Source: a virus (lineage: Duplodnaviria > Heunggongvirae > Uroviricota > Caudoviricetes). From it: a stretch of DNA of 64,000 bases. The translations under genes and the position numbers were made by a program. The DNA lies in IMG/VR virus record IMGVR_UViG_2925897562_000001; one strand, 5' to 3'. Positions 55,125 through 56,446 of the stretch are shown one piece after another. Every line of letters begins with the position of its first letter. Position 1 is the first letter of the stretch. A model generated the notes under the pieces. The model was not told the DNA's origin. It did no database searches and saw only the letters and a list, made by a program, of their open reading frames with translations.

Positions 55125-55228
55125 TTGACTATACGCGATTTTATGTTGACTGTGCACGATTTATTGTTGACTGCACGCGATTTATTGTTGACTATACGCG
55201 ACAGAAACATTGACTGTACGCGATTTTA
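55125..55228 (+). repeat. five direct iterons (incC-type) upstream of repA
   Basis: TTGACTRTRCGCGATTTAT repeated at 55125, 55146, 55167, 55188, 55210 with 21-22 bp periodicity. Confidence 0.8.
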
Positions 55229-55304
55229 GAGTCTGAATATTCACAGCTGTTGATAACAGCCATCCAAATTGACGTCAGGCCGCGCCACACATGGAGAAAC
55301 CACG

Positions 55305-56189
55305 ATGCCGGAAGAAAGTAAAGGCTTCCTTAGCGTTGAAGAAGTTGCAGGAAATACAGGAGAAATCCACAGCCTGAAGCCCAATAACAACAGCACTATA
55401 CAACCCATCGCTTTGTTGCGTTTAGGTGTGTTTGTGCCAACCTTAAAATCTACCAATGTGGCGCTACGTCGCGGATCGTCAGTTACAACAAACACAACGA
55501 ACGCAACTGAAGAACTATCAAGCCTCAAAATTGTTGAGCAGGAAGGCTATGAGGGAATTGAAATTCATGGTCCACGCCTGGATATGGATACTGATTTTAA
55601 GGTGTGGGTGGGCATAACCTCCGCGTTGTTTGACTATGCACCTGATGATGACGGTATAATCACCCTGCCATTCTCCGAGTTTGCCGATCGATGCGGCTAT
55701 CCACGTAAGCGTCTTTCAAAGGCGTTCCGTAAAAGTATTGATGACTCTCTGACACGCATTCAGCAGACAGTTGTCAAATTCCGCTTCCCGGCGGCAAAAG
55801 GTCATCTCAATAACATTAACGTCAACTTGTTGGCATATAGCAGCCTGAATACCGAGCTTGATGTTATCGAGATCCAGCCGCAGAAACAGCTATCTGAACT
55901 TTACTATGTTGACTATAAGCGAATCCTGAAGCTGAAGATGCTGGATAAACTAGGGCGCAAAGAGACAGCCAAGGTACTGTATACATTCTTTGAGGCTCTA
56001 CCCGCCAACCCGGCACCTGTCAGCATTGAGCGCCTTAGAGCGAGGCTTAATCTCAAATCATCCGTTAGCGTGCAAAATAGCGTTATCAGAAAAGCCATGA
56101 AAGATTTGGAAGCTATTGAATATCTTAAATTTTCAGAGATAAAAAACGGCAGGAAAATCGGCTTCCAGATCCATAAGCGCAATCCATAA
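55305..56189 (+). CDS. repA: RepA iteron-binding replication initiator
   Basis: 294 aa from ATG 55305; TIQPIALLRLGVFVP and GPRLDMDTDFKVW, which I recall as conserved in P1 RepA; flanked by iterons on both sides. Confidence 0.8.
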   Translation: MPEESKGFLSVEEVAGNTGEIHSLKPNNNSTIQPIALLRLGVFVPTLKSTNVALRRGSSVTTNTTNATEELSSLKIVEQEGYEGIEIHGPRLDMDTDFKVWVGITSALFDYAPDDDGIITLPFSEFADRCGYPRKRLSKAFRKSIDDSLTRIQQTVVKFRFPAAKGHLNNINVNLLAYSSLNTELDVIEIQPQKQLSELYYVDYKRILKLKMLDKLGRKETAKVLYTFFEALPANPAPVSIERLRARLNLKSSVSVQNSVIRKAMKDLEAIEYLKFSEIKNGRKIGFQIHKRNP

Positions 56190-56191
56190 TA

Positions 56192-56446
56192 TTGACTATA
56201 TGCGATAGCGAGAAGTTGACTATAGGCGACATTCGTTGACGCTGGTGGATTTTTGCTGGCGTCAATATTCTGCAAGTCGCTATTGAGATGGCTTTTAGGC
56301 CCATTTCATCGCGTATAGTCAACGTTTCTCCCGACAATATCTTACATAGTCGATCTTTGGTGGAGTTAAATCGACTACAGTCAACTTTTGACTGTAGTCA
56401 CATCGCGCATAGTCAACTATTCACATTAACCTTCGCGCATAGTCAA
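56192..56446. repeat. incA-type iteron array downstream of repA (about nine copies, both orientations)
   Basis: TTGACTATATGCGA, TTGACTATAGGCGAC, then inverted CGCGTATAGTCAA, CGACTACAGTCAA, TTGACTGTAGTCA, CGCGCATAGTCAA x2. Confidence 0.75.

What the first reader, a model, noticed from the sequence alone, without database searches (positions are those of the whole stretch)
55125..56446. Iteron replicon whose repeat sequence differs from the P1 iteron as I recall it
Five direct 19-21-bp iterons (TTGACTRTRCGCGATTTAT) precede repA and about nine more in both orientations follow it, preceded by a perfect DnaA box and a GATC cluster; this is classic oriR/incC/incA architecture. My recollection of the P1 iteron (containing TGTGCTGGAGGGA) does not match this repeat, and RepA here is only partly similar to what I recall for P1 RepA, whereas ParA/ParB/parS look P1-type. 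This suggests a mosaic replicon of a different incompatibility group.
Basis: partly seen in the sequence, partly recalled or inferred. Interest (0 to 1): 0.4.

Follow-up and report, generated by a model that had tools for sequence, protein, structure and literature searches.

The report
Known p0111-type replicon in P1-like phage-plasmid
This is the plasmid-maintenance origin of a P1-like phage-plasmid that carries the already described "p0111" replication cassette in place of phage P1's own (IncY) one: same design, different initiator and repeats, so it is real but ordinary.

Summary
The 14-mer TTGACTRTRCGCGA with at most 1 mismatch occurs 12 times in the 64-kb window, all between 55125 and 56446. 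There are five direct copies at 21-bp spacing upstream of repA, one inside repA, and two direct plus three inverted copies downstream. A fourth inverted copy has 2 mismatches. So six strong copies lie downstream, not nine. A perfect DnaA box (55013) and six GATC sites (55027-55120) precede the array. RepA here is 42% identical to P1/P7 RepA. ParA (99.7%), ParB (100%) and the parS boxes are P1-type. The differing block (55108-57357) also carries a T5orf172/GIY-YIG-like gene. The region matches pO111_2 (AP010962/NC_013370), the cited "p0111" reference, at 98.5% nucleotide identity. Its RepA is identical to that of phages RCS47 and phi456, and the block occurs in about 400 PLSDB plasmids and 414 of 5426 complete E. 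coli genomes. The IncY/p0111 alternative at this position is published (NAR 2021; Microbiol Spectr 2022; Microb Genom 2024).

The parts
55013..55021 (+). Left DnaA box, perfect consensus TTATCCACA. P1 has two tandem boxes at this point; this element has one.
   Evidence: invariant in RCS47, L011 and L004
55027..55120 (.). GATC (Dam) cluster. Six GATC sites start at 55027, 55040, 55062, 55073, 55080 and 55117, four of them as AGATCC heptamer-like repeats. This stretch is homologous to the five Dam sites of P1 oriR at about 70-80% identity.
   Evidence: nearly invariant in L004
55125..55230 (+). Five direct origin iterons (incC-like), core TTGACTRTRCGCGA(TTT), spaced 21-21-21-22 bp as in P1. Each begins with the -35-like hexamer TTGACT.
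   Evidence: the same five copies at the same spacing in L004, L011 and L012
55237..55256 (.). Two near-consensus DnaA boxes to the right of the iterons: ATATTCACA on the + strand and TTATCAACA on the - strand. The second is a perfect box (TGTGGATAA) in the 85% RepA lineage L004.
55305..56189 (+). repA, a 294-aa iteron-binding initiator with Rep3 WH1/WH2 domains. It is 42% identical to P1/P7 RepA, 99.3% to pO111_2 and 100% to RCS47 and phi456.
55909..55922 (+). Intragenic iteron TTGACTATAAGCGA (codons V-D-Y-K-R). The identical 14-mer sits at the same place in RCS47, L011 and L004. P1 repA has no counterpart.
56192..56229 (+). Two direct iterons just after the repA stop codon; this is the start of the incA-like array.
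56236..56270 (.). Degenerate inverted pair of half-iterons (TTGACGCTGG...CTGGCGTCAA). The PWM score is about 8, which is within background. It contains one of the window's 48 Chi sites.
56309..56446 (-). Four inverted iterons (56309-22, 56371-84, 56403-16, 56433-46), forming the distal part of the incA-like copy-control array. P1 has three direct plus six inverted copies here.
56482..57291 (+). A 269-aa T5orf172 / GIY-YIG-like protein gene that travels with the cassette. It is absent from P1 and P7 and split in pO111_2. Its function is unknown.
57299..57322 (+). Terminator-like hairpin followed by a T run, closing the cassette. Homology to P1 resumes at 57358, just upstream of Ppar.
57460..59761 (+). 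Context only: P1-type parA (57460-58656), parB (58673-59674) and parS (59679-59761).

Best explanation
This is the plasmid-prophage replication and copy-control module of a P1-like phage-plasmid, in its 'p0111' version. It is built like P1 oriR-repA-incA, and the parts run left to right as follows: a DnaA box, a Dam-methylated GATC cluster, five 21-bp-spaced iterons, inverted DnaA-like boxes, repA, and a downstream iteron array in both orientations. By homology with P1, RepA monomers would bind the five origin iterons. Together with DnaA they would open the adjacent GATC-rich stretch. Dam methylation and SeqA sequestration of the GATC sites would time re-initiation. RepA bound at the promoter-proximal iterons would repress repA. 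The downstream array would hold copy number low by titrating RepA and pairing with the origin ('handcuffing'). RepA (42% identical to P1 RepA) and the iterons (no resemblance to P1's) have diverged together, so the replication specificity is distinct from IncY. The host-factor part of the origin and the par system remain P1-like. Shown here: the anatomy, the homologies, and identity with the p0111 reference. Inferred from P1: every binding and control step.
For: The iterons are far beyond chance and confined to the locus. The architecture matches, item by item, the annotated P1 record and the pairwise alignment. RepA hits Rep3_C and, marginally, Rep3_N and PHROG 775. It is 42% identical to P1/P7 RepA over 92% of its length. 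The region matches pO111_2 (NC_013370 = AP010962) at 98.5% nucleotide identity over 7.6 kb, with RepA 99.3% identical. PMC11165635 names AP010962 as the p0111 reference. JL22, described in PMC9603915 as repA'(p0111) plus gp57 replacing repA(IncY), is 97.9% identical in DNA. The 5+1+2+4 iteron layout, the DnaA boxes and the GATC cluster are all kept in a lineage whose repA is only 76% identical in DNA (L004). The module occupies the place of P1's only plasmid replicon, and no P1 iteron is present in the window. It is intact in about 400 PLSDB plasmids and 414 complete E. coli genomes.
Against: There is no experimental evidence for any step in this element. The repA promoter could not be located by consensus: no + strand hit falls in the iteron region. 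Rep3_N scores 22.0 bits against a gathering score of 22.4. There are only six strong downstream iterons against nine in P1, so the strength of copy control may differ. The window covers 64 kb of a roughly 95-kb element, so a second plasmid replicon elsewhere cannot be ruled out from the window alone.
Confidence: 0.9

Rival explanations
1. It is simply the standard P1/P7 IncY replicon and the first reader misremembered the P1 iteron.
For: The architecture is the same, and the flanking genes and par are P1-type.
Against: None occurs in the window. RepA is 42% identical to P1 and P7 RepA, which are 100% identical to each other. Megablast finds only the first 158 bp in true P1.
Confidence: 0.01
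2. It is an IncFIB (RepFIB) replicon recently captured from an F-type or SSU5-type plasmid, as some database annotations ('RepFIB replication protein A') imply.
For: Several phage records label this protein RepFIB RepA. RepA belongs to the same broad family as the IncFIB and SSU5 initiators.
Against: The best non-p0111 relatives are only 44-53% identical, about as distant as P1 RepA itself: Proteus 53%, Klebsiella IncFIB-like 48.6%, E. coli IncFIB 45-47%, SSU5 45.7%. Relatives above 85% identity sit in P1-like or similar phage-plasmid-sized contigs. The left part of the origin is homologous to P1's.
Confidence: 0.03
3. The module is a decayed or accessory relic. Maintenance is driven by another replicon, and the repeats have no control function.
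For: The window does not cover the whole element. The promoter was not found by consensus scan. Some downstream repeats are degenerate.
Against: The ORF is intact and 99-100% conserved across hundreds of elements. Iteron number, spacing and orientation are kept in a lineage with 76% DNA identity. The module replaces P1's sole plasmid replicon at the same position. Published surveys find each P1-like element typed as either IncY or p0111 (PMC9603915, PMC11165635).
Confidence: 0.03

Closest known systems
p0111-type replicon of P1-like phage-plasmids (pO111_2 AP010962/NC_013370; phages RCS47, SJ46, JL22, phi456)
   Same: Essentially identical. DNA identity is 97.7-100%, and RepA is 99.3-100% identical. 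The iterons, the T5orf172 gene and the position between upfA and parA are the same.
   Different: Nothing of substance. In pO111_2 the T5orf172 gene is split into two ORFs. JL22 has an insertion in upfA (PMC9603915).
Phage P1/P7 plasmid replicon oriR(incC)-repA-incA (IncY)
   Same: The order of parts is the same: DnaA box(es), GATC cluster (about 70-80% DNA identity), five iterons at 21-21-21-22 bp spacing, DnaA boxes on the right, a homologous repA, then iterons first direct and then inverted. It lies at the same genomic position and has the same par system as P1.
   Different: The iteron sequence is unrelated. RepA is 42% identical and 8 aa longer. There is one left DnaA box instead of two, and six GATC sites instead of five. 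There are six strong downstream iterons instead of nine. An iteron lies inside repA that P1 lacks. An extra 269-aa gene sits before parA.
RepFIB-type and SSU5-type iteron replicons of Enterobacterales plasmids and phage-plasmids
   Same: They share the RepA superfamily (44-53% identity) and the general design of DnaA box, GATC sites and 21-bp iterons. A Proteus relative has iterons of related form, TTGTTGATGCTAGTCGATTTT.
   Different: The replicon type and iteron sequence are different, and so is the plasmid backbone. The p0111 type is reported only from P1-like elements (PMC9603915).

Membership tests
p0111 replicon type (PlasmidFinder reference AP010962, plasmid pO111_2) | High nucleotide identity of the rep gene to the reference sequence | tested here: met
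   Window 52286-59888 aligns to NC_013370 (= AP010962) at 98.5% over 7603 bp. RepA matches at 292/294 aa. The reference accession is named in PMC11165635.
p0111 replicon type (PlasmidFinder reference AP010962, plasmid pO111_2) | Sits in a P1-like backbone at the position of the P1 plasmid replicon (between upfA and parA) | tested here: met
   The flanks match P1 at 96.5% and 99.2%. The window is P1-like over all parts compared.
P1/P7 IncY replicon | 19-bp iterons of consensus GATGTGTGCTGGAGGGAAA in incC and incA | tested here: not met
   No such site occurs in the window with <=2 mismatches; the single 3-mismatch match at 35028 is unrelated. The P1 iterons were read from the annotated record.
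P1/P7 IncY replicon | RepA essentially identical to P1 RepA (P1 and P7 RepA are 100% identical to each other) | tested here: not met
   42.3% local and 39.5% global identity.
P1/P7 IncY replicon | oriR/incC/incA architecture: DnaA boxes, Dam GATC cluster, five origin iterons, and a downstream control array in two orientations | tested here: met
Rep3-type iteron-binding initiators (Pfam PF01051 Rep3_N + PF21205 Rep3_C) | WH1 and WH2 domains above the Pfam thresholds | tested here: inconclusive
   Rep3_C scores 27.3 bits against a cut-off of 21.1 (met). Rep3_N scores 22.0 against 22.4 (just below). The clear 42% homology to P1 RepA supports membership. There is no PDB sequence hit.
Rep3-type iteron-binding initiators (Pfam PF01051 Rep3_N + PF21205 Rep3_C) | Initiator binds the repeated iterons next to its gene | not testable with these tools
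   Only the co-occurrence of the gene with 12 iterons is shown.
IncFIB / RepFIB replicon | RepA close to the IncFIB reference initiators | tested here: not met
   E. coli and Klebsiella IncFIB-like RepA proteins are 44-49% identical.
An incompatibility group distinct from IncY, in the experimental sense | Stable co-residence with an IncY plasmid; no destabilisation by cloned P1 incA/incC | not testable with these tools
   Indirect evidence only. The iterons are unrelated, but par is P1-type. Only 2 of 5426 complete E. coli genomes carry both types against 27.5 expected.

The most novel reading that the evidence does not exclude
The p0111 replicon has a functional thirteenth RepA site inside its own gene (55909-55922). 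The site would take part in copy-number control or repA expression, by looping or handcuffing between the origin and downstream arrays or by acting as a transcriptional roadblock. P1 lacks such a site. Separately, the replicon swap does not by itself allow P1-like elements to co-reside, because the shared par system and immunity still exclude them.
Probability: 0.25. Interest if true: 0.3.

Novelty: already known. Interest (0 to 1): 0.12.

Why it matters
The biology is not new. That P1-like phage-plasmids come with either an IncY or a p0111 replicase at the same position has been in the literature since at least 2017-2021, and it is used routinely for typing. The practical value is correct labelling. 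These elements are often annotated as 'RepFIB', 'replication helicase' or (MOB-suite) 'IncHI1B', all of which mislead. Two small points may interest plasmid biologists. First, I found no paper in the searchable library that holds both 'p0111' and 'iterons', so the map given here (5 + 1 intragenic + 2 + 4 iterons, DnaA boxes on both sides, six GATC sites) may be the first explicit description. Second, the published suggestion that IncY and p0111 elements can share a host is not borne out by co-occurrence in complete E. coli genomes.

Tried and rejected
(1) A consensus promoter scan of 54900-57500 found no + strand sigma-70 match in or after the iterons. Manual inspection also gave no convincing -35/-10 pair conserved between the window and L004. 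The repA promoter is therefore left unlocated.

(2) NCBIfam, PADLOC and PDB sequence searches gave no hits for RepA or the T5orf172 protein.

(3) Accession AP010962 is not in the collections. Its RefSeq twin NC_013370 was used instead.

Only six stand above background. Candidates at 56236, 56353 and 56261 score about 8 bits, like random sites elsewhere in the window.

(5) GCTGGTGG at 56241 resembles part of the P1 iteron and is a Chi site. The window holds 48 Chi sites, and the site is not conserved in L004 (GCTGGCGG), so I dropped it.

(6) I considered whether the T5orf172/GIY-YIG gene drives cassette exchange, as a homing endonuclease would. There is no supporting evidence, and L004 carries the replicon without the gene.

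(7) I could not list the two genomes that carry both replicon types, because the search tool shows at most 60 rows.

Full report
**1. What is in the sequence**

Reading 54600-57400, with the repeat finder, shows the described layout. A perfect DnaA box, TTATCCACA, lies at 55013-55021. Six GATC sites start at 55027, 55040, 55062, 55073, 55080 and 55117. The window average is 4.0 GATC per kb, so about 0.4 would be expected in this stretch.

Five direct repeats start at 55125, 55146, 55167, 55188 and 55210, with 21-21-21-22 bp spacing. An ORF with an ATG at 55305, preceded by GGAG, ends at 56189 (294 aa). More copies of the repeat follow the stop codon in both orientations.

The core TTGACTRTRCGCGA with at most one mismatch occurs 12 times in the 64-kb window, and every copy lies between 55125 and 56446. 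A position weight matrix built from these sites scores them 23-32 bits. The best score anywhere else in the window is 13.2 bits.

Only six strong copies lie downstream: 56192 and 56216 are direct, and 56309-22, 56371-84, 56403-16 and 56433-46 are inverted. Two or three further candidates score no better than background.

**2. Comparison with P1 and P7**

The RefSeq P1 record annotates oriR, the DnaA box, five Dam sites, five incC iterons, PrepA, repA and nine incA iterons. They have nothing in common with the repeats here. No P1-type iteron occurs in the window.

RepA is 42.3% identical to P1 and P7 RepA over 92% of its length, or 39.5% in a global alignment. P1 and P7 RepA are identical to each other.

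BLASTN against the P1 region aligns window 52000-55107 at 96.5% and 57358-61381 at 99.2%. The 2250 bp in between have no counterpart except a 59-bp patch inside repA.

The left junction is not sharp. Identity is about 98% up to roughly 54850. It falls to 88-94% up to 55000, and then to 70-76% across the DnaA-box and GATC part of the origin. It vanishes at the first iteron. The host-factor half of the origin is therefore an old homologue of P1's, while the RepA-specific half has diverged beyond recognition.

P1 has two tandem left DnaA boxes and this element has one. To the right of the iterons both have DnaA-like boxes.

ParA is 99.7% and ParB 100% identical to P1, against 57% and 40% for P7. 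parS matches P1 at 79 of 83 positions. All four differences fall outside the ParB A and B boxes (with the annotation).

**3. Identity of the replicon**

Megablast finds the 1551-bp region at 97.7-98.8% in phages phi456, RCS47, SJ46, JL22 and Ro157c2YLVW, and in three records named 'P1'. It is present at 95% identity or more in about 400 PLSDB plasmids, mostly non-mobilizable E. coli plasmids of 90-100 kb. RepA is 100% identical to that of RCS47 and phi456.

PMC11165635 uses AP010962 as the 'p0111 repB' reference. Its RefSeq twin NC_013370 (pO111_2) aligns to window 52286-59888 at 98.5% with RepA 99.3% identical. The replicon is therefore the p0111 type.

The literature already states the main points:
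- P1-like phage-plasmids carry one of two replicase families at the same position, typed IncY or p0111 (PMC7969092).
- In JL22, repA'(p0111) plus an unknown gene replace repA(IncY), and 24 of 55 subgroup-1 elements are p0111 (PMC9603915).
- SJ46 RepA is 42% identical to P1 RepA (PMC5241659).
- The replicon type changed about 17 times along the Salmonella phage-plasmid tree (PMC11165635).

No paper in the searchable library holds both 'p0111' and 'iterons'.

**4. Relatives and conservation of the design**

A protein search finds RepA clusters at 99%, 94%, 90% and 85% identity. The next relatives are at 53% (Proteus) and below 50% (IncFIB-like and SSU5-like initiators).

The 90% lineage (L011) is a P1-like metagenome scaffold with the same gene order. 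The 85% lineage (L004) lies on a 91-kb E. coli contig with different neighbours. Its homology to the window begins exactly at the DnaA box.

All of these, and RCS47, keep five origin iterons at 21-21-21-22 bp, one intragenic iteron, two direct downstream iterons and four inverted ones. In L004 the left DnaA box and the GATC cluster are almost invariant. Its right-hand box is a perfect TGTGGATAA, where the window has TGTTGATAA.

The intragenic iteron may be under selection as DNA. Between the window and L004 only 48% of codons with a conserved amino acid use the same codon. All five codons under the iteron core are identical, and the two flanking codons differ synonymously. This is suggestive only: about 0.03 by a naive estimate, and it is one of four identical runs of 17 nt or more in the gene. 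P1 repA contains no iteron-like site.

**5. How it most likely works**

By homology with P1 (established knowledge of the P1 plasmid replicon; features as annotated), the likely sequence of events is as follows:
- RepA binds the five origin iterons.
- DnaA binds the flanking boxes.
- The GATC-rich stretch is the region opened at initiation, and it is controlled by Dam methylation and SeqA sequestration.
- RepA bound at the promoter-proximal iterons represses repA.
- The downstream array limits copy number by titrating RepA and pairing with the origin.

All of these steps are inferred. The sequence shows only the anatomy and the homology. The repA promoter could not be located by consensus. RepA matches Rep3_C above threshold and Rep3_N just below it, and it has no relative of solved structure detectable by sequence.

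**6. Is it a different incompatibility group?**

At the replication level this is very likely, because the iterons and the initiator are both different. No experiment was found in the literature.

Two facts argue for caution. First, par is P1-type, so partition-mediated (incB) incompatibility with P1 should remain. Second, I tested co-carriage in 5426 complete E. coli genomes. The p0111-specific segment is in 414 genomes. The IncY-specific segment is in 361. A concatenated query matches 773. So only 2 genomes carry both, against 27.5 expected under independence (hypergeometric P about 7e-11).

Double carriage within a type is equally rare: 0 and 1 genomes observed against 15 and 12 expected. 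The genomes are not independent samples. Even so, the data give no sign that the replicon switch relieves exclusion between P1-like elements. Shared par, C1 immunity and superimmunity are obvious candidate causes; this is inference.

**7. The extra gene**

The cassette also carries a 269-aa T5orf172 / GIY-YIG-like protein gene (56482-57291), followed by a terminator-like hairpin. It belongs to PHROG 2876, of unknown function. It has no PADLOC or NCBIfam match. It is split in pO111_2, is absent from P1 and P7, and does not accompany the replicon in L004. It is probably a passenger.

**8. Verdict**

However, this is the well-known p0111 alternative replicon of P1-like phage-plasmids. It is not novel and interest is low.

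Noticed in passing
window 55909-55922: A strong iteron (TTGACTATAAGCGA, PWM 23.4 bits) lies inside repA. The identical 14-mer is at the same codons in RCS47, L011 and the 76%-identical L004 gene, with all five codons unchanged where only 48% of conserved-residue codons are unchanged gene-wide. P1 repA has no such site.
   Followed up: partly
window 56482-57291: A 269-aa T5orf172/GIY-YIG-like gene sits between the downstream iterons and parA. It belongs to the block that differs from P1, is split into two ORFs in pO111_2, and is absent next to the related replicon in L004. It is in PHROG 2876 (unknown function) and has no defence-system or NCBIfam match.
   Followed up: partly
E. coli genome collection: p0111-specific and IncY-specific replicon segments occur in 414 and 361 of 5426 complete E. 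coli genomes, but together in only 2 (27.5 expected). This is as depleted as double carriage of one type. It runs against the published suggestion that the two types can readily share a host.
   Followed up: yes
L012 (RCS47) 6656-8870 versus window 57460-59674 and P1/P7: PMC5241659 states, citing the RCS47 paper, that RCS47 ParA/ParB are identical to P7 and distant from P1. Direct comparison shows the opposite. RCS47 ParA and ParB are 100% identical to the window's, which are 99.7% and 100% identical to P1 and 57% and 40% to P7.
   Followed up: yes
L001 (NZ_CP069679.1, 100% identical replicon): PLSDB/MOB-suite types this plasmid's replicon as 'IncHI1B'. Phage records call the same protein 'RepFIB replication protein A' or 'replication helicase'. 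These labels are inconsistent and misleading for one and the same p0111 RepA.
   Followed up: no
L004 4710-6120 (E. coli GCA_013513435.1, 91-kb contig): A sister replicon (RepA 85%, iterons TTGACTATGTGCGA) has the same 5+1+2+4 layout but different flanking genes. It has no upfA or parAB next to it. Only one gene, 66% similar to the window ORF at 61667-63256, links the contig to the P1 family. It may be another phage-plasmid lineage.
   Followed up: partly
L006 4200-6560 (Proteus mirabilis plasmid-like contig, RepA 53%): The nearest outside relative has a duplicated origin module (a 353-bp repeat, each copy with a TTATCCACA box and 21-bp iterons TTGTTGATGCTAGTCGATTTT). It also has eleven tandem 43-bp units, each with two iteron-like halves, right after repA.
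   Followed up: no
window 13254-14576: In the alignment with P1, the roughly 6.3-kb res-mod (EcoPI type III restriction-modification, with IS5) segment of P1 (3414-9751) is replaced here by about 1.3 kb of unrelated sequence.
   Followed up: no
whole window; example at 56241-56248: The window holds 48 Chi sites (GCTGGTGG, both strands) in 64 kb, far above the roughly 2 expected for a random 8-mer. One lies inside the downstream iteron array but is not conserved in L004.
   Followed up: no
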